DNA from: an uncultured Candidatus Saccharibacteria bacterium
GTDB taxonomy: Bacteria > Patescibacteriota > Minisyncoccia > SW-4-49-11
Reading direction: 5' to 3'
Assembly: GCA_964646465.1 (NCBI GenBank)
Contig: CAZYEN010000015.1
Location: 1 to 63,987 of the forward strand
DNA: 63,987 nt
Within the stretch, counting starts at the first letter, position 1. The number at the start of each line of letters is the position of its first letter. The position numbers and the translations under genes are program-made. Positions 13,563 to 56,673 of the stretch are shown here, piece after piece. The notes beneath the pieces are model-generated. The model worked only from the letters and a program-made list of their open reading frames with translations. It had not been told where the DNA came from and did no database searches.

Positions 13563-16500
13563 TTATCTCTCCTCAAATTCTCTACGAGAAATATTAAAGA
13601 ACTTCTCAAAAAATCGAGTCAGTTTTTGTAAAATACTTTCACGCTTTTTGGTATAGGCTCCATCAGGAGAGAATCGTGAGGGTTTAGTTTCCATAATCTG
13701 AGCAACTCCTGTCCCAGTACCCGCAATAGCACCATCTCGAAAAGCATTTTGTACAAAAGCATAAGTTGCTTCTCGATTCAATTCTTCACTCTCAATAATA
13801 GCCTCAAGCTCTTCAACCTTTTTCTCCTCCACAAATCTATGCCAATCATCATCCACATTCGATTGAATATCTAGCGAAGTAATAAATTGATTAATCAAAT
13901 CTTTCTTGTTACGAAGTTCGATACTCGAATCAATCGCCTTATTAATATCCACCAAAATCTCTTTATCTTGAGTATTATCCTCATGATATTTTTTAATCAA
14001 AGTCAAAATATAATCAATATTAATCTCAATTTGCTTGATAAGCTCCATCTCAAACACAAGATCCTCATTAATATTTTCTTTATCCTCATCTATTGTTTTA
14101 CGGAACTCATGATATAAATCAATATATTTACTATGATAATCTTGAATATCACGATCAGATAACATCTCATTCCCCGCAAACTCATCAAAAGTAGTCAAGA
14201 TATTCCTCAACCGCAAAATTGAACCATATAATTTGATAAACTCTTTTTTACCCGACTCACTAATAATCTCTTCATTCACGGGAAACTCTTGCAACAATTC
14301 ATCAATAGAGCTTTTATACCCTTTTATCTCCTTATCCCCATCCCGATAACCATGATAATAATCTCCATAAGCCTTCAGTAACACAATACCACTCGCCTCT
14401 TTATCACCAAATAATGCAATTGATTCATTCGTCACCCTCTCAAGATTTCGGAAACACACAATATTCCCAAAAGTCTTCACACTATTCAAGATACGATTTG
14501 TTCGCGAATAAGCCTGAAGCAATCCATGTAAACGCAAATTTTTATCCACCCAGAGAGTATTCAACGTTGTCGCATCAAATCCAGTCAAAAACATATTCAC
14601 CACAATCAAGATATCAATTTCGCGATTCTTTACCCTTTCACTCACATCCTTATAATAACTTTGGAATTTATCCGAAGAAGTATCCCAAGAAGTCCCAAAC
14701 ATTCCATTATAATCCTTGATAGCATTCTCAAGGAAATCTCGAGAGCTCATATCAAGTCCACTCGTATCCTCAGAATTTTCATCAATCAATCCATCAGCAT
14801 CCTCATCATTTGCCCCAAAGCTAAAAATAGTCGCAATTTTTAACTGCTTATCACTTGGCAAATCAGCTAACTGTTTTTTGAACTCAAGATAATATTGTTT
14901 TGCCATCGGGATAGAAGCCACCGCAAAAATAGAATTAAACCCAGCCAATCGACGGTCTTTAAGACGATAAAAACTATTTCGCTTTGTCTTTTGATCAAAA
15001 TGCTCCCGAATATACCCCACAATATTCTCAAGCCTCTCAGGAGATGCCAATACCTTCTCACGATCAATATCATTCACCTTTTTATCTTCAATATTCTCCG
15101 CCTCCCTCACCGTCGAAACATAATCCACCTTAAAGGGGAGTACATTCTTATCCGCAATCGCATTTACAATCGTATAGGTATGTAATTTATCCCCAAAAGC
15201 CTGCTCAGTCGTCTTGAGATCAGGACGCCCACCACCAGAAGCATTAATTGCAAAAATTGGCGTACCCGTAAATCCAAAAATATGATAATTCTTAAATGTC
15301 TTCGTAATAGCAGAATGCATATTCCCAAATTGAGACCGATGACATTCATCAAAAATCAGCACAATATGCCCATCAAAAATAATATGTCCATCATTACGCC
15401 CAATAAACCGATCCAGCTTCTGAATAGTCGTAATAATAATGCGAGATTCAGGATTTTCTAATTGCTGTTTGAGAATAGCCGTACTCGTATTACTATCCGC
15501 CGCCCCCTTTTGGAACTTATCATATTCCTTCATCGTCTGATAATCCAAATCCTTACGATCAACCACAAAAATAACCTTATCAATATAATCAAGTTTGCTC
15601 ACCAATTGAGACGTCTTAAAACTCGTCAAAGTCTTCCCCGAACCCGTCGTATGCCAAATATATCCACCAGCCTCAACAGTACCCAGCTTTTTATAATTCG
15701 TACTCACTTCAATACGATTCATAATACGCTCAGTCGCCACAATTTGATATGGTCTCATCACCAATAATTGCTTATCCGAAGTAAAGACACAATACTTCGT
15801 CAAAATATTCAGAATTGCATGCTTAGCAAAAAATGTCTTCGTAAAATCCATCAAATCCGTAATAGGTCTATTGGTAGCATCAGCCCACCAACTCGTAAAT
15901 TCATAACTATTACTACTACGCTTCCCCTTTTTAGCAGAATTTTGATTCGCCTCCTTGATATGTTGATTACGCGTAGTATTACTATAATATTTAGTATGAG
16001 TACCATTCGAGATTACAAATAATTGCACATACTCGAATAGTCCAGAATCAGCCCAAAAGCTTTCCCGCTGATAGCGATTAATCTGATTAAAAGCCTCTTG
16101 AATAGCAACGCCTCGACGCTTCAATTCAATATGTACCATAGGTAAACCATTTACCAAAATAGTTACATCATAGCGATTAGCCCTTTGCCCCTCCTCAGGA
16201 GTATATTGATTCAAAACCTGCAGACTATTATTATGAATAGATTTTTTATCTATCAAATCAATATTTTTAATAGAACCATCATCACGATACAATAATTTTC
16301 TACTATCCTCCTGAATAGTAGTTGTCTTCTCCTCAATACTTTGATTGGGATTAGCAATTGCAGTCTTAAAAAACTTCTCCCATTCCGTATCACTAAATTG
16401 TATATTATTTAATTTCTCCAATTGATGACGCAAATTCAAAACCAAATCAGTCTCAGAAGTAATACTCAAATATTCATAAGCCTGACTTTCTAATTGCTTG

Positions 16501-16631
16501 ATAAAAGCTCGCTCCAATTCCGCCTCACTCTGATAGCTCTCCTCTCTTACAGATGAAAGTATATATTCACCCACAACCGTACTTTGATTCTGTTGAGCGA
16601 CAAGATTATATTGAGATGTTTTATCTGACAT
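13563..16631 (-). CDS. hsdR: Type I restriction endonuclease subunit R
   Basis: SF2 helicase motifs TGSGKT and DECHRSQ, 1022 aa, with hsdS and hsdM on the same strand. Confidence 0.95.
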   Translation of the reverse strand: MSDKTSQYNLVAQQNQSTVVGEYILSSVREESYQSEAELERAFIKQLESQAYEYLSITSETDLVLNLRHQLEKLNNIQFSDTEWEKFFKTAIANPNQSIEEKTTTIQEDSRKLLYRDDGSIKNIDLIDKKSIHNNSLQVLNQYTPEEGQRANRYDVTILVNGLPMVHIELKRRGVAIQEAFNQINRYQRESFWADSGLFEYVQLFVISNGTHTKYYSNTTRNQHIKEANQNSAKKGKRSSNSYEFTSWWADATNRPITDLMDFTKTFFAKHAILNILTKYCVFTSDKQLLVMRPYQIVATERIMNRIEVSTNYKKLGTVEAGGYIWHTTGSGKTLTSFKTSQLVSKLDYIDKVIFVVDRKDLDYQTMKEYDKFQKGAADSNTSTAILKQQLENPESRIIITTIQKLDRFIGRNDGHIIFDGHIVLIFDECHRSQFGNMHSAITKTFKNYHIFGFTGTPIFAINASGGGRPDLKTTEQAFGDKLHTYTIVNAIADKNVLPFKVDYVSTVREAENIEDKKVNDIDREKVLASPERLENIVGYIREHFDQKTKRNSFYRLKDRRLAGFNSIFAVASIPMAKQYYLEFKKQLADLPSDKQLKIATIFSFGANDEDADGLIDENSEDTSGLDMSSRDFLENAIKDYNGMFGTSWDTSSDKFQSYYKDVSERVKNREIDILIVVNMFLTGFDATTLNTLWVDKNLRLHGLLQAYSRTNRILNSVKTFGNIVCFRNLERVTNESIALFGDKEASGIVLLKAYGDYYHGYRDGDKEIKGYKSSIDELLQEFPVNEEIISESGKKEFIKLYGSILRLRNILTTFDEFAGNEMLSDRDIQDYHSKYIDLYHEFRKTIDEDKENINEDLVFEMELIKQIEINIDYILTLIKKYHEDNTQDKEILVDINKAIDSSIELRNKKDLINQFITSLDIQSNVDDDWHRFVEEKKVEELEAIIESEELNREATYAFVQNAFRDGAIAGTGTGVAQIMETKPSRFSPDGAYTKKRESILQKLTRFFEKFFNISRREFEER

Positions 16632-16752
16632 AAGGATACAATTATCAATTAATAATGAAGGATCAAGAATTATGTATTTTCTGCTTCATTGAAATCTTTA
16701 TCTTACCCATAATTTTACACAATTTTTTTACTTATGTATATACTATCATATT

Positions 16753-17382
16753 TTATTTATTAAAATTATTCGGATGAAGAGAATCTAGTTCCCAATTTAT
16801 AGGGTTATTGATTATATATTCCTGTATACGAAATAAATCTTTATCATTTCTAATAATATGATCATAAAAAGATTTTTGCCAAAAAGTTCCATGTTTATTC
16901 AAAGTAGACTTCGTAGAGTCGGCGCCCTTAAACTTCGTAGAGTCGGCGCCCTCGCCGACACTTTCCCTCACACACCCACCGACACTCTCCTTAAACTCTC
17001 TCAAAGAAACCCTTTTAAACGAACTGACCACATCCCCCAAACTGACCTTTTTTCCCGTTACCAAAGAACAAGAATTCTCATCAAGTCCAATGATACCATG
17101 AAAATGATTCGGCATAATCACATATTCATCAAGAATAACATCCGAATAACATTGAGTTGTATTCAACCACACTTTTTCAATAATTTTTCCCAAGAGGTTA
17201 AGTTTGTATTTTGGACTTGATTGTATCGGCGAGGGTACCAATATAAACTCTGTGGTATTCTGTGTCGGCGAGGGCGCCGACTCTACGAAAATACATTGCA
17301 TATTGTAAGTGCATAAGGTGATAAAATACCAATATCCGCCTTGATATAAATTTTTGGATAAACGATTATTTTGTCGTTTCAT
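16753..17382 (-). CDS. RAYT / IS200-like HUH (Y1) transposase-family protein
   Basis: HUH motif MPNHFHGII. C-terminal block FWQKSFYDHIIRNDKDLFRIQEYIINNP, typical of REP-associated tyrosine transposases. Two loop regions are encoded by GC-rich hairpin repeats. Confidence 0.75.
   Translation of the reverse strand: MKRQNNRLSKNLYQGGYWYFITLCTYNMQCIFVESAPSPTQNTTEFILVPSPIQSSPKYKLNLLGKIIEKVWLNTTQCYSDVILDEYVIMPNHFHGIIGLDENSCSLVTGKKVSLGDVVSSFKRVSLREFKESVGGCVRESVGEGADSTKFKGADSTKSTLNKHGTFWQKSFYDHIIRNDKDLFRIQEYIINNPINWELDSLHPNNFNK
16907..16960 (+). repeat. Tandem GTAG-hairpin (REP-like) units inside the RAYT-like CDS
   Basis: ACTTCGTAGAGTCGGCGCCCT occurs twice with a 24-nt period. The second unit has the full hairpin GTCGGCG-CCCT-CGCCGAC (16942-16959), preceded by GTAG (16937-16940). 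Confidence 0.85.
17222..17289 (-). repeat. Inverted GTAG-hairpin (REP-like) units inside the RAYT-like CDS
   Basis: 17263-17289 is the exact 27-nt reverse complement of 16934-16960 (TTCGTAGAGTCGGCGCCCTCGCCGACA). A degenerate copy lies at 17222-17238. Confidence 0.85.
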
Positions 17383-17423
17383 ATTTTATATTTTCCCAAT
17401 TTGGGATTTTTTGTAAAATTTCC

Positions 17424-18608
17424 TTAATTCTGAATTTCCTGAAAGGTAAGAAGTTTATTGCGATAATATTTATATTGCTGACGACGAGCCTTAAGCTCAG
17501 CAGGTAGCCCAATAGAGATATTATTCACTAAATCATCGAATTTATCAAGTATAGAGACAATTCGCTCTTGTTCAGCAAGAGGTGGGACGGGGATTTTGAT
17601 TTTTGACATTACATTACTCATAATTTTGGGGTTTCCCATTCCAGAGCTAACATACTTTTTTGAAACAGTAGCTAGGATATATGATAAAAATTTTATATTA
17701 ACATTATCATCCTTCACTTTTAAAAGCCCACAAACATTAGTAATACTAAACTTTCCCTTACGATAAAAAATTGAACCAGCATGTGCACCATCTGTCGTCC
17801 AAGTTATATACTCCCCATCATAATCATATGTATCTATATTGCCAAAGATACCGTAATTTACCGTTTGAGAAGAATATACAGGATATTTCCCAGCATTATC
17901 TTTAAGATAATCTTTAGACATAACCCTACCACGACTAATTAAGCAAATTTCTTCAATTTTTTTCTGTTCCACATCATCACCAAAAGACAAAAGTCCATCT
18001 CGATAAAAATCATACTGTTTTTTACGAGCTTCTAGCTCTGCTTCTAGCTCTGCTTCTAGCTCGGTAAAATGATCCAAAATCCTCACAATCTCCTCCTGTA
18101 CTGAAAGTGGAGGGACGGGAATTTTGAATTTTGCTAACCAAGTTGTACTCATATTTTTCTGCCCTCCTCCCGTCGCATTACTCATTGCCTCTGTTTCAAA
18201 ACTATCTTGATCAAAAAAATGGAACAGATAGCGTGTTAAAACCAAGCTCTCATCAGCCCTAATACAAGCTACTCGTTGATTAAGCCCAGCTGGTAAATTT
18301 ACACTAGCTATCATAGCAACTCTACCAACATTCCCAGTTAAAGACATCACTAAATCATTTTCTTTTAATAAATATTTTTCAATCTCTTTTTTTGTATCTA
18401 GAGAATAAAATTTCAAATCTTTATCAGACATTTTACCTTTTTGAACATCAGAAATTCGAATAACACGAATCCCTTTTTCAGTATATTTACTGCTTTTAAA
18501 TGAATATCCATTCAAAATCTCTGCAATTTCTCTTACACTCTTAAACTCCACCCCATTGGGGCATAGTTCTTTAATTAGTGATTCAATTTTGGAATATTTT
18601 TCACTCAT
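17424..18608 (-). CDS. hsdS: Type I restriction-modification specificity subunit
   Basis: Two target-recognition domains separated by conserved helical spacers: ...EEIVRILDHF...(ELEA)3RKKQY... and ...QERIVSILDKF...LKARRQQY. Confidence 0.9.
   Translation of the reverse strand: MSEKYSKIESLIKELCPNGVEFKSVREIAEILNGYSFKSSKYTEKGIRVIRISDVQKGKMSDKDLKFYSLDTKKEIEKYLLKENDLVMSLTGNVGRVAMIASVNLPAGLNQRVACIRADESLVLTRYLFHFFDQDSFETEAMSNATGGGQKNMSTTWLAKFKIPVPPLSVQEEIVRILDHFTELEAELEAELEARKKQYDFYRDGLLSFGDDVEQKKIEEICLISRGRVMSKDYLKDNAGKYPVYSSQTVNYGIFGNIDTYDYDGEYITWTTDGAHAGSIFYRKGKFSITNVCGLLKVKDDNVNIKFLSYILATVSKKYVSSGMGNPKIMSNVMSKIKIPVPPLAEQERIVSILDKFDDLVNNISIGLPAELKARRQQYKYYRNKLLTFQEIQN
18028..18063. repeat. 3 x 12-bp tandem repeat in the central conserved region of hsdS
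   Basis: GCTTCTAGCTCT occurs three times (the last base of copy 3 differs). It encodes ELEA-ELEA-ELEA. Confidence 0.9.
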
Positions 18609-18609
18609 A

Positions 18610-18960
18610 TTATTTTTTAGTTAAATACACACAGATAATATACACTGTAATAGCCGGAATACCTATTGAGAAGGCAAGTATATAATTTCCTATTGGAAAA
18701 TAACTTAATGAAAAACCAAATAGTACAGAAGATATAAATTCAAAAACAGTTATTAGGCTATAGTTTTTTAGTTTTGCATCTAATAAAATATAACTCTTTT
18801 CAATTTCATGATTTTTCAATCGAAATTTTTCACATTCGTCTTGTGTTTTTTTAAGAGATGCTTCAAGATTATTTACTTTTTCTAACATCATCTTATATGC
18901 AACTGTGGTAGATTGTTCTTTCTTAGTTAGATTATTTTTCTGCTTTCTTCCAGACCTCAT
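18610..18960 (-). CDS. Small coiled-coil protein with two C-terminal TM helices
   Basis: 116 aa. It lies 1 nt from both the upstream stop and the hsdS start, suggesting translational coupling. It has a basic N-terminus, a heptad-like middle and hydrophobic segments VFEFISSVLFGFSL and ILAFSIGIPAITVYIICVYL. Confidence 0.6.
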   Translation of the reverse strand: MRSGRKQKNNLTKKEQSTTVAYKMMLEKVNNLEASLKKTQDECEKFRLKNHEIEKSYILLDAKLKNYSLITVFEFISSVLFGFSLSYFPIGNYILAFSIGIPAITVYIICVYLTKK

Positions 18961-18961
18961 A

Positions 18962-19303
18962 CTATTTAAAAAGTTGGATTAAACCAAAAGATGACCAGCT
19001 AAATTGTTTTGTTGGCTTTCTATGAGGTATTTGTGGAATAGCTGGAATGGGGGGTATTTGTGGAATAGGAAATATTGGAGATGGATAGTCATTAGATAAT
19101 TCTGAAAAACCAACAACAAAACCATATAAATCTCTTATAACATATCCCTCTAGCCAACCCAGATGTTTACCTTTATATGAATAAATAATATTATCCTTCT
19201 CATAACCTAGGTTATATCCATGTTTATCACAAAAAGTACCTTCTGTTGAAAATATTACTTGAGGAGTACCATACCTATCATAGAACCAAATATTATTACT
19301 CAT
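18962..19303 (-). CDS. Small beta-hairpin-repeat protein (4-fold beta-flower-like) with a Pro-rich repeat tail
   Basis: 113 aa with repeated G/aromatic hairpin units (YGTPQVIF, HGYNLGY, KGKHLGWLEGY, LYGFVVGF). The tail is PIFPIPQIPPIPAIPQIP. The family assignment is by pattern only. Confidence 0.55.
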   Translation of the reverse strand: MSNNIWFYDRYGTPQVIFSTEGTFCDKHGYNLGYEKDNIIYSYKGKHLGWLEGYVIRDLYGFVVGFSELSNDYPSPIFPIPQIPPIPAIPQIPHRKPTKQFSWSSFGLIQLFK

Positions 19304-19468
19304 AAAAATTATTATTGTTTTCTATATCCACTACTATATTATCAATCTTTTCTTGTATGAACTTTATTGCTTGCTCTTTGTCCATGTATTATTGAAATAT
19401 TTATATCTCTATTATAGCATAATTATATTAATATGAGAGTAGTTTTCAAAAATCCAATTCTTCTTGTG

Positions 19469-19519
19469 GACTGAGCCTGTCGAAGCCCTAGATCCCATCG
19501 CCTTCGATAAACTCAGGCT
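19469..19519. repeat. GC-rich imperfect palindrome (REP-like element)
   Basis: In GACTGAGCCTGTCGAAGCCCTAGATCCCATCGCCTTCGATAAACTCAGGCT the arms CTGAG/CTCAG and TCGAAG/CTTCGA pair. It sits between two divergent promoters. Confidence 0.6.
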
Positions 19520-19551
19520 ACTTCTGTTTTATCCATTACTACTCATTGCTA

Positions 19552-19580
19552 TTGAAAACATAAAAGGATTATGGTATAAT
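19552..19580 (+). promoter_or_regulatory. Near-consensus sigma70-type promoter with extended -10
   Basis: TTGAAA (19552-19557), a 17-nt spacer, then TGgTATAAT (19572-19580). Confidence 0.6.
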
Positions 19581-19586
19581 GTATTT

Positions 19587-40709: not shown

Positions 40710-41286
40710 AAACTTATAAGAAAAACACCAGCTTAAGAAGGAATGGGTATGTGGTTATTTGGACTCCCTTTGGAGAAGTGCTCTATTTTGTCCTCCCTTG
40801 GGGTAGGTAGTCTCTCCTATATTATATTTAGGAGAGACCGGAATAGGACTAAGCTATAAAAAGTGAACCTTATAATTTATTTGTTTTACTAAATTTTAGA
40901 TAGAAAAAATCTGGCCACGAGGTGGTCAGATTAGAGAAAGGGTAAACCTAGATTTTGAAGTCTTATAAGCTTCTTCTTACAATGAGCTAGAGTTCTTTGC
41001 TCACACAAAGATATATTTTTTTATCCTCTATGGCCTCTATTATATACCGTACTCTGATTATTTCAGACTTAATGTTTCTTTTTGAGTTTGGAATAGTAAA
41101 CCCAGTTGCTTCCATTTTTTTAGGGCACACCAAAAATTATTCTATCACAACTATCTTTTTTGTCAATAGTATATATTGAATTAATAAAAACTCTCCTTAG
41201 TTTACCCAAGGAGAGTTATACAATTATTTTTTCAACACAAACACAATATATTGCTGGAATTTATCTATAATATAGAATTTTTTGAT

Positions 41287-52042: not shown

Positions 52043-52071
52043 TGTAGGGGCGACCTTCCAGTCGCCTGTAC
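52043..52071 (+). repeat. GTAG-hairpin REP-like element
   Basis: In TGTAGGGGCGACCTTCCAGTCGCCTGTAC the hairpin is GGCGAC-CTTCCA-GTCGCC. A related copy lies at 22206-22232 on the reverse strand. A further hairpin CCCCTC-AAGA-GGGG lies at about 52141-52156. Confidence 0.6.
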
Positions 52072-56422: not shown

Positions 56423-56673
56423 AAATCTCCGAGAACATATTTAAAAAATATCATATTCCCCAAACTTTTTCAATGTTAATAACTATACAAACTCAATACC
56501 CAGTAGATTAAAATATATATCCCATATATCTCTTTTTAAGAGCTCATAGGAGGGACGAAATCCCTACAATTCATAATTTATAATTCATCATTCATAATTA
56601 CAGCCTGCCCCCAATCTTTGAAAATAAGCTAATTTTATGGTATAATTATATTTAGTAAAATAATAATAACTCT

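What the first reader, a model, noticed from the sequence alone, without database searches (positions are those of the whole stretch)
16753..17382. RAYT-like HUH gene wedged between hsdS and hsdR carries its own GTAG-hairpin (REP-like) units in frame, as a perfect 27-nt inverted pair
The ORF has the HUH motif (MPNHFHG) and the C-terminal FWQ..FYDHIIR......YI.NNP block of REP-associated tyrosine transposases. Inside the coding sequence lie GC-rich units of the form GTAG plus the hairpin GTCGGCG-CCCT-CGCCGAC.
- Two tandem copies sit at 16907-16960.
- On the opposite strand, an exact 27-nt reverse complement lies at 17263-17289 (TTCGTAGAGTCGGCGCCCTCGCCGACA), with a degenerate copy at 17222-17238.
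- The inverted pair is 302 bp apart and brackets the HUH-encoding segment.
- The units are translated as loop insertions (FVESAPSP..., ...VGEGADSTKFKGADSTK) without breaking the frame.

A GTAG tetranucleotide followed by an imperfect palindrome is the known architecture of REP substrates of RAYTs, which normally flank the gene rather than sit inside it. A related unit (CGGCGAGGGTGGCGAC) is present in the REP cluster at 22121-22154.
Basis: partly seen in the sequence, partly recalled or inferred. Interest (0 to 1): 0.7.

Follow-up and report, generated by a model that had tools for sequence, protein, structure and literature searches.

The report
Transposase gene carrying its own REP hairpins
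A small, intact transposase-like gene in an ultra-small (Paceibacteria/CPR) bacterium carries copies of its own DNA target hairpins inside its reading frame; this oddity is already described for its gene family, though here the two hairpins flank the catalytic core and that core is swapped between genomes.

Summary
ORF 16753-17382 (-) encodes an intact Y1 HUH protein. A perfect 28-nt inverted repeat of a GTAG-tagged hairpin (arms 16934-16961 and 17262-17289), plus partial tandem copies, is read in frame.

The motifs (PNHFH / WQ / YIINNP) match TnpA_REP subclass 2.4 (RAYT group 4). Quentin et al. 2018 already reported in-frame REP insertions as the hallmark of that subclass. I found such units in 82 of 88 relatives, so the core finding is a new member of a known kind.

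Further results:
- The same unit is dispersed between genes in related Paceibacteria MAGs, so it is a genuine REP-like repeat.
- The REP-encoded peptides are the only low-confidence loops in an otherwise confident model, whose best structural match is 4ER8.
- dN/dS of 0.11-0.16 indicates a functional gene.
- Close relatives have hsdS and hsdR only 2-5 nt apart, so the gene is a roughly 0.8-kb insertion.

What seems new:
- One unit lies before the HUH motif and one after it.
- Paralogues carry different hairpin types at the same two sites, always matched within a gene.
- The REP-bounded core has a separate ancestry from the gene ends (97% versus 81% identity, or 61% versus 90%).
- Two unrelated type I R-M operons each host a copy.

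The parts
16753..17382 (-). RAYT / TnpA_REP subclass 2.4-like ORF, 209 aa. HUH codons H93/H95 lie at 17098-17106, W168-Q169 at 16876-16881, and the catalytic Tyr189 codon at 16816-16818.
   Evidence: Y189 aligns with Y115 of 4ER8, N193 with N119; dN/dS 0.11-0.16.
17262..17289 (-). Site-1 REP-like unit on the sense strand: TTCGTAGAGTCGGCGCCCTCGCCGACAC. It is read as F-VESAPSPT in the beta1-alphaA loop, before the HUH motif.
   Evidence: pLDDT below 50 for residues 37-56.
17222..17235 (-). Degenerate half-unit (CCCTCGCCGATACA on the sense strand). It is part of a 39-nt partial duplication that is absent from the paralogue L022.
   Evidence: D5, I6; alignment (39-nt gap in L022).
16934..16961 (+). 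Site-2 REP-like unit, with its GTAG on the strand antisense to the gene. It is the exact reverse complement of site 1 and is read as VGEGADST in the alphaC-beta4 loop.
   Evidence: pLDDT below 50 for residues 137-154.
16905..16928 (+). Truncated tandem copy of the site-2 unit (GTAG plus the 5' half of the stem). Copy number here differs between otherwise identical strains: L021 has one extra 48-nt repeat.
   Evidence: D1.
17383..17423 (-). 41-nt leader that belongs to the inserted segment. It contains the palindrome TCCCAAATTGGGA (17394-17406).
   Evidence: present in the occupied sites window, L139 and L135; absent from the empty sites L136 and L138.
16632..16752 (-). 121-nt trailer of the inserted segment, upstream of the hsdR start codon.
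   Evidence: Empty sites have only 2-5 nt between the hsdS stop and the hsdR ATG.
22132..22147 (-). Decayed relative of the unit core (CGGCGAGGGTGGCGAC) with no GTAG. It lies within the palindrome CCCTCGCCGGCGAGGG, between hsdM and ileS.
22208..22230 (-). Decayed GTAG-hairpin unit of a different type (GTAGGGGAGACCTTTCAGTCACC).
52044..52066 (+). Single intergenic GTAG-hairpin unit of another type (GTAGGGGCGACCTTCCAGTCGCC). The same type sits next to the type-A unit in arrays in related MAGs.

Best explanation
The ORF is an intact REP-associated tyrosine transposase (TnpA_REP / RAYT) under purifying selection. It belongs to subclass 2.4 (Bertels group 4) and sits in a Paceibacteria (CPR) genome. 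It arrived as a roughly 0.8-kb insertion at the hsdS|hsdR junction of a type I (EcoR124-type HsdR) R-M operon.

Its cognate GTAG-tagged REP hairpins lie inside its own reading frame rather than beside it. One sense copy (plus a half copy) is in the beta1-alphaA loop. One and a half antisense copies are in the alphaC-beta4 loop. They are translated into disordered surface loops that the HUH fold tolerates.

By analogy with E. coli TnpA_REP (4ER8), the protein should bind the hairpin plus the 5' GTAG on single-stranded DNA. The conserved WQKSFYDHIIR block corresponds to the residues that hold GTAG. Tyr189 should then cut at a nearby CT. This step is inferred and was not tested.

The same unit is scattered between genes in related genomes, so the enzyme and repeat form a REP/RAYT system. 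The internal copies keep enzyme and substrate physically linked. They also mark the limits of a central module, comprising the HUH core and the hairpins, that is exchanged between genomes.
For: - Identity: NCBIfam REP_Tyr_transpos E = 4e-17. A family profile hits 4ER8 at E = 2.3e-8, with the HUH, Y115 and N119 positions aligned. Foldseek's best hit is 4ER8, followed by the ISDra2 and IS608 TnpA structures.
- Subclass: the motifs PNHFH / WQ / YIINNP and the length fit Table 1 of PMC6006769, where in-ORF REPs are the stated hallmark.
- Family-wide pattern: 82 of 88 relatives carry GTAG hairpins in frame.
- REP status: the unit occurs in about 33 low-GC Patescibacteria loci, mostly intergenic and in arrays.
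- Loops: the only segments with pLDDT below 50 are residues 37-56 and 137-154.
- Function: dN/dS 0.11-0.16.
- Insertion: empty sites in L136 and L138 versus occupied sites in the window, L135 and L139.
- Matched pairs of four or more hairpin types at the same two sites.
- Separate ancestry of the module: 96.7-97.7% identity inside versus 81-83% outside (p about 1e-14), and 61% versus 82-90% for type A against type B.
Against: - The single sequence falls below the curated cut-offs: NCBIfam 62 against 80 bits, Pfam Y1_Tnp 16 against 23 bits.
- The 64-kb window holds no intact extragenic copy of this unit and no REP within 1 kb of the ORF. The REP population is therefore shown only in related MAGs.
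- Loop sequences of extragenic and intragenic copies within one MAG often differ.
- No biochemical evidence shows that this protein binds or cuts the unit.
- The module exchange could result from ordinary homologous recombination anchored in the conserved gene ends, with no role for the REPs.
Confidence: 0.8

Rival explanations
1. Passive hitchhiking. The units are selfish REP copies that landed in the only two loops of the protein that tolerate extra residues. They have no role for the gene. Matching types and inverted orientation would follow from cis-preferential insertion and from coding constraints: in the sense orientation one of the three frames gives a TAG stop.
For: - REPs insert in frame into unrelated genes (PMC3733652).
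- In L022 the same unit is read in frame in the N-terminal extension of hsdS and in a 294-aa ORF.
- The exact position and frame of site 2 differ between paralogues.
- Unit copy number varies between identical strains.
- The encoded peptides are disordered.
Against: - 82 of 88 family members have in-ORF units, far more than any other gene.
- The sense-plus-antisense pairing of one type is kept across four or more hairpin types.
- Hairpin stems are kept by compensatory changes in L131.
- The breakpoint of the exchanged module lies exactly at the GTAG.
Confidence: 0.3
2. RNA-level autoregulation. The two arms pair in the mRNA as a 28-bp long-range stem enclosing the HUH-coding segment. This would limit translation or invite RNase III cleavage, keeping transposase levels low.
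For: - Both the MFE and centroid folds of the 630-nt mRNA contain the full long-range stem (z = -3.5).
- No terminator on the gene strand separates the ORF from hsdS or hsdR, so it is probably co-transcribed.
Against: - A perfect inverted repeat will always dominate a thermodynamic fold.
- In homologues the arms carry 1-4 mismatches, mostly in hairpin loops, and each arm also folds locally.
- Most family members have adjacent or 'double-foot' units, which cannot enclose the core.
- No Rfam family matches the region.
Confidence: 0.1
3. Intragenic invertible switch. Recombination between the 28-bp arms flips the 300-bp core and turns the gene off.
For: The arms are perfect 28-bp inverted repeats 300 bp apart. 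The flipped state would truncate the protein after about 85 residues.
Against: The independent assemblies (window/L001, L021, L022, L135, L139) and the more distant loci checked at sequence level (L017, L019, L132, L129, L126, L131) show a full-length ORF in the native orientation. No recombinase gene is nearby.
Confidence: 0.03
4. Decaying pseudogene or assembly artefact.
For: The single sequence is below the curated family cut-offs.
Against: - The catalytic residues are intact.
- dN/dS is 0.11-0.16.
- The core is modelled with confidence.
- The same architecture appears in independent assemblies from JGI, NCBI, ENA and Logan.
Confidence: 0.02

Closest known systems
TnpA_REP subclass 2.4 (Quentin, Siguier, Chandler & Fichant 2018, BMC Genomics 19:475) = RAYT group 4 (Bertels et al. 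2017)
   Same: The signature motifs NH[IFV]H / WQ / YIxNNP and a length near 200 aa are shared. [quoted passage not shown]
   Different: [quoted passage not shown]
- Here one unit lies before the HUH motif (beta1:alphaA) and its inverted partner lies in alphaC:beta4, so the pair brackets the catalytic core.
- No REP flanks the gene in the window.
- The host is a CPR bacterium.
- The REP has a short 7-bp stem.
E. coli TnpA_REP (YafM) with REP/BIME; structure 4ER8 (Messing et al. 2012; Ton-Hoang et al. 2012)
   Same: The HUH/Y1 fold, the GTAG-binding WQ..F.[DE]H.IR block and the Tyr and Asn of alphaD are shared. The substrate in both cases is a 5'-GTAG-tagged hairpin.
   Different: The E. coli protein belongs to subclass 2.2 (DHLH, YIHYNP), has an auto-inhibitory C-terminal tail, and its REPs are strictly extragenic. 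Sequence identity is only about 18%.
REPIN (Bertels & Rainey 2011)
   Same: Two inverted copies of one REP, associated with a single RAYT.
   Different: REPIN arms are separated by a short non-coding spacer and are non-autonomous. Here the 300-nt 'spacer' encodes the HUH core of the enzyme itself.
In-frame palindromic insertions: Rickettsia RPEs and intragenic GTAG/CGTC REPs (Di Nocera et al. 2013)
   Same: Short palindromic repeats are translated as extra loop residues without breaking the frame.
   Different: Those hit unrelated housekeeping genes sporadically. Here the host gene is the cognate enzyme, and the arrangement is conserved across a clade.
IS200/IS605 insertion sequences (IS608, ISDra2)
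   Same: A Y1 HUH enzyme with hairpin-plus-guide-tetranucleotide recognition. The gene is present or absent as a discrete insertion.
   Different: IS ends carry two hairpins on the same strand, outside the gene. There is no tnpB here, and the hairpins are internal and inverted.

Membership tests
Y1 HUH transposase / RAYT (TnpA_REP) | HUH motif and a catalytic Tyr followed by Asn on helix alphaD | tested here: met
   H93-F-H95 is present. Y189 and N193 align with Y115 and N119 of 4ER8.
Y1 HUH transposase / RAYT (TnpA_REP) | Curated profile score (NCBIfam REP_Tyr_transpos, Pfam Y1_Tnp) | tested here: not met
   NCBIfam gives 62.4 bits against a cut-off of 80. Pfam gives 16.4 against 23. A 110-sequence family profile does hit 4ER8 at 2.3e-8.
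Y1 HUH transposase / RAYT (TnpA_REP) | HUH/Y1 fold | tested here: met
   The AF2 model has pLDDT 80.8. Its top Foldseek hit is 4ER8 (E = 4.6e-6), followed by the ISDra2 and IS608 TnpA structures.
Y1 HUH transposase / RAYT (TnpA_REP) | Binds and cleaves its REP on single-stranded DNA | not testable with these tools
   This needs biochemistry.
TnpA_REP subclass 2.4 / RAYT group 4 | Key motifs NH[IFV]H, WQ, YIxNNP; median length 194 aa | tested here: met
   The protein has PNHFH, WQ and YIINNP and is 209 aa long, matching Table 1 of PMC6006769. The authors' own HMM and tree were not available.
TnpA_REP subclass 2.4 / RAYT group 4 | REP sequences inserted in frame within the gene | tested here: met
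   The same holds in 82 of 88 relatives.
TnpA_REP subclass 2.4 / RAYT group 4 | [quoted passage not shown] | tested here: inconclusive
   Site 2 lies between HuH and Y, but in alphaC:beta4. Site 1 lies before HuH.
TnpA_REP subclass 2.4 / RAYT group 4 | Canonical REPs within +/-1 kb flanking the gene | tested here: not met
   There is none outside the ORF in 15753-18382. They are present around the paralogue in L022.
REP (repetitive extragenic palindrome) | 5' GTAG tag plus a palindromic hairpin | tested here: met
   The unit is GTAG-A-GTCGGCG-CCCT-CGCCGAC.
REP (repetitive extragenic palindrome) | Many dispersed extragenic copies in the same genome | tested here: inconclusive
   The 64-kb window has none. 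The conspecific MAG P_PACE2 has 10 exact-pattern copies, of which 5 are in RAYT ORFs, 2 in neighbouring ORFs and 3 intergenic. MAG JBIKVS01 has 11, of which 9 lie outside the RAYT gene. These MAGs are incomplete.
REPIN | Two inverted REPs separated by a short non-coding spacer that forms one long hairpin | tested here: not met
   The arms are 300 nt apart and the spacer is coding.
IS200/IS605 insertion sequence | Subterminal hairpins on one strand at both ends; several near-identical copies; often a tnpB gene | tested here: not met
   The leader and trailer lack GTAG hairpins. P_PACE2 holds two copies at about 93% identity. No tnpB is present.
Intragenic invertible element | Both orientations observed in a population | tested here: not met
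   Only the native orientation appears in the assemblies examined. Read-level data were not available.

The most novel reading that the evidence does not exclude
The inverted REP pair delimits a self-contained, horizontally exchanged 'specificity cassette': the hairpins plus the HUH core that reads them. This cassette is swapped between otherwise conserved RAYT scaffolds, which supply the N-terminal strand at one end and the GTAG-binding block and catalytic Tyr at the other.

The swap could be initiated by the enzyme itself cutting at the CT inside the CTAC that each arm presents on the opposite strand. That would be a REPIN whose cargo is the core of its own transposase. It would explain how RAYT and REP specificities co-diversify.

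Only the mosaic ancestry is shown here. Enzyme-driven exchange is inference.
Probability: 0.25. Interest if true: 0.75.

Novelty: new member of a known kind. Interest (0 to 1): 0.45.

Why it matters
The headline feature, a RAYT gene that carries its REPs in frame, is already in the literature for subclass 2.4. This window extends the phenomenon to CPR/Paceibacteria.

Three observations that I did not find reported in the papers consulted bear on an open question, namely how REPs and RAYTs stay matched and diversify:
- Different hairpin types sit at the same two loop positions, always as a matched inverted pair.
- The REP-bounded core has a different evolutionary history from the gene ends at one syntenic locus.
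- The gene is a discrete present-or-absent insertion at the hsdS|hsdR junction, and a second copy sits in an unrelated type I R-M operon of the same genome.

These give concrete, testable substrates: cassette swaps, and cleavage at the C|TAC edges.

Tried and rejected
- Chance. Rejected: the 27-mer and its core have 0 expected matches.
- Pseudogene. Rejected on intact motifs and dN/dS 0.11-0.16.
- Invertible switch. The flipped state gives stop codons, and only the native orientation appears in the assemblies examined. No support, though read-level data were not available.
- Known RNA family. None in 16000-23000 at E <= 1 except a chance Phe_leader hit.
- Internal promoter or terminator separating the ORF from the operon. 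Only weak consensus matches appear, with no terminator on the gene strand.
- 'Lineage-specific insertion'. Rejected in that form, because the same sites are occupied in homologues at 45-58% identity.
- Operon duplication as the reason for two R-M-embedded copies. Rejected: the HsdR proteins are 23% identical and carry different Pfam C-terminal domains (EcoR124_C versus T1RH-like_C), and DNA similarity stops at the RAYT start and stop codons.
- P0014 DNA, needed for a fourth flank/cassette combination, could not be fetched. That 2x2 argument therefore rests on protein sequence only.
- L040 and L028 'in-ORF' units turned out to lie upstream of the real gene or in spurious ORFs.
- A literature search linking RAYT/REP with Patescibacteria found nothing.

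Full report
**Observation**

The ORF 16753..17382 (-) encodes 209 aa with MPNHFHG and WQKSFYDHIIR...EYIINNP. A perfect 28-nt inverted repeat has arms at 16934-16961 and 17262-17289, with 300 nt between them. No match is expected in shuffles. Each arm is a GTAG-tagged hairpin, GTAG-A-GTCGGCG-CCCT-CGCCGAC.

A truncated tandem copy lies at 16905-16928 and a degenerate half-copy at 17222-17235. The window is 34% GC, and these are the most GC-rich spots near the gene. The repeat segments are 53-60% GC against 31% for the rest of the ORF. A two-mismatch relative of the core lies at 22132-22147, with 0 expected by chance.

**What the protein is**

- NCBIfam REP_Tyr_transpos matches at E = 4e-17 but below its cut-off. 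Pfam Y1_Tnp is weak.
- A profile of 110 homologues hits only E. coli TnpA_REP (4ER8) in the PDB, at E = 2.3e-8. It aligns the HUH motif, Y189 with catalytic Y115, and N193 with N119.
- The conserved WQKSFYDHIIR block corresponds to W94, Q95, W99, E100, H101 and R104. The 4ER8 work and Quentin et al. list these residues as holding the GTAG.
- An AlphaFold model has pLDDT 80.8 and pTM 0.77. It is confident everywhere except residues 37-56 and 137-154, which are exactly the two repeat-encoded segments.
- Its best structural match is 4ER8, followed by the ISDra2 and IS608 transposases.
- dN/dS against a paralogue and an orthologue is 0.11 and 0.16. The gene is functional and not decaying.

**What is already known**

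Quentin, Siguier, Chandler and Fichant (2018, PMC6006769) define TnpA_REP subclass 2.4, equal to Bertels RAYT group 4, by NH[IFV]H / WQ / YIxNNP and a median length of 194 aa. [quoted passage not shown] These insertions are in frame, generally lie between HuH and Y, and sit in a peripheral loop.

The window protein has these motifs. In my own census of 88 relatives from metagenomes and genomes, 82 carry at least one GTAG hairpin in the ORF. Most are a sense-plus-antisense pair or a 'double-foot' unit just after the HUH motif. The core of the finding is therefore a new member of a described kind, not a new phenomenon.

**The unit is a genuine REP-like repeat**

A scan of one genome per species for GTAGAGTCGGCG-N4-CGCCGAC returned 44 loci.
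- About 33 are in low-GC Patescibacteria MAGs.
- Most of these are intergenic, far from any RAYT gene.
- They typically sit in arrays with other 'TTCGTAG + hairpin' units about 32-35 nt apart.

The window is conspecific with MAG P_PACE2, at 100% DNA identity across hsdS-RAYT-hsdR apart from one repeat unit. That MAG has 10 exact-pattern copies: 5 in its two RAYT ORFs, 2 in frame in neighbouring ORFs and 3 intergenic. The window itself holds no intact extragenic copy of this type. It has only decayed or single units of other types, at 22208-22230, 52044-52066 and 56549-56567.

**Not simple lineage-specific insertions**

Distant homologues (for example P0041, P0052, P0054) lack both segments. 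Homologues at 45-58% identity have units at the same two protein positions, and their DNA shows matched inverted pairs of different hairpins.

| Locus | Site 1 | Site 2 |
|---|---|---|
| L129 | GTAGCGGAGGGTTTATCCCTCC | identical (perfect match) |
| L126 | GTAGCGGAACCCTTGCGGTTCC | one mismatch |
| L131 | related hairpin | stem kept by a compensatory change |

A further variant type is inferred from peptides in P0012 and P0017. Site 1 always follows the conserved Phe codon (TTY|GTAG). The frame and distance of site 2 from the Trp codon vary.

**The gene is an insertion**

Relatives whose HsdR is 96% and 93% identical have hsdS and hsdR separated by only 5 and 2 nt (L136/L137, L138). The window, L021, L135 and L139 instead have a 41-nt leader, the ORF and a 68-128-nt trailer at that junction.

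P_PACE2 has a second copy, about 93% identical in DNA, in a different type I operon. The HsdR proteins of the two operons are 23% identical (EcoR124_C versus T1RH-like_C). Similarity there starts within about 10-25 nt of the ATG and ends at the stop codon.

**Separate ancestry of the REP-bounded core**

At a syntenic locus (CCA-adding enzyme, RAYT, an 88-aa ORF, V-ATPase I), identities are as follows.

| Comparison | From first GTAG to last CTAC | Outside that segment | Fisher p |
|---|---|---|---|
| Three genomes with type A units | 96.7-97.7% | 81-83% | about 1e-14 |
| Type A versus type B | 61% | 82-90% | 1e-12 to 1e-26 |

The type B locus is the closest relative of one type A locus by its flanks. 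The 5' switch lies exactly at the GTAG. The 3' switch lies between +428 and +452, near the Trp codon at +432.

The core and its hairpins therefore move, or are replaced, as a module. The GTAG-binding block and the catalytic Tyr stay with the scaffold. Ordinary homologous recombination anchored in the conserved ends could produce this. So could cleavage by the enzyme at the CT within CTAC, since TnpA_REP cuts at CT as specified by A3 and G4 of GTAG (PMC3479197). I cannot distinguish these two routes.

**Other readings**

- The mRNA fold contains the 28-bp long-range stem, which is expected for any perfect inverted repeat.
- Flipping the core would truncate the protein, but only the native orientation appears in the assemblies examined.
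- No Rfam family matches, and there is no gene-strand terminator.

**Verdict**

The class is already described. The arrangement that brackets the HUH motif, the matched type-switching, the mosaic core and the repeated R-M junction location are additions worth following up. Interest is moderate.

Noticed in passing
window 17424-18608 (hsdS) compared with L021 3280-4476: The window and MAG P_PACE2 are 95-100% identical across the conserved parts of hsdS, the RAYT gene and hsdR. Both target-recognition domains of hsdS are only 35-65% identical. This is a clean swap of specificity domains between near-identical strains.
   Followed up: partly
window 18610-20467; L021 961-3283; L136 2274-4770; L138 3288-4718: The slot between hsdM and hsdS holds different cargo in close relatives. 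The window has DUF3800, a Bflower protein and a 116-aa ORF. Other relatives have an AAA_15/AAA_21 ATPase, a ClpP-like protein or a 292-aa protein.
   Followed up: no
L034, L036, L041, L043, L018, L028 (Paceibacteria MAGs): Intergenic arrays hold two or three different 'TTCGTAG + hairpin' units, all on the same strand and about 32-35 nt apart. A recurring example is GTAGGGCTTTAGTCCCTCC, then GTAGAGTCGGCG..CGCCGAC, then GTAGGGGCGACC..GTCGCC. These are composite, BIME-like modules, but in direct orientation.
   Followed up: partly
L022 1053-2393 and 2390-3274: In the second R-M operon of P_PACE2 the same unit is read in frame twice: in the N-terminal extension of hsdS (NPVESAPSPTYS, plus partial copies) and, in antisense orientation, in a 294-aa ORF with no Pfam match (NVGEGADSTKFKDAD).
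   Followed up: partly
window 16858-17220 (+); L021 4680-5090 (-); L022 3381-3815 (-): A 120-144-aa ORF antisense to the RAYT core stays open in all three copies, despite the AT-rich genome. Whether that is chance was not examined.
   Followed up: no
window 17394-17406: The palindrome TCCCAAATTGGGA lies in the 41-nt leader of the inserted segment. On the + strand it reads as a terminator-like hairpin followed by a T-run. The empty site L136 has ATCCC at the junction.
   Followed up: no
L019 2754-3281: This type A RAYT copy has a premature TGA shortly after the YI.NNP motif (175 aa against 186 aa in L017 and L132). It loses only the C-terminal tail.
   Followed up: no
window 40803-40838: An AT-rich 12-bp-stem hairpin preceded by GTAGGTAG. 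It is probably an ordinary terminator and not a REP.
   Followed up: no
L020 5247-6098: A DUF3800-like gene lies near the RAYT copy in a Saccharibacteria-labelled MAG, echoing the DUF3800 gene in the window's R-M operon.
   Followed up: no
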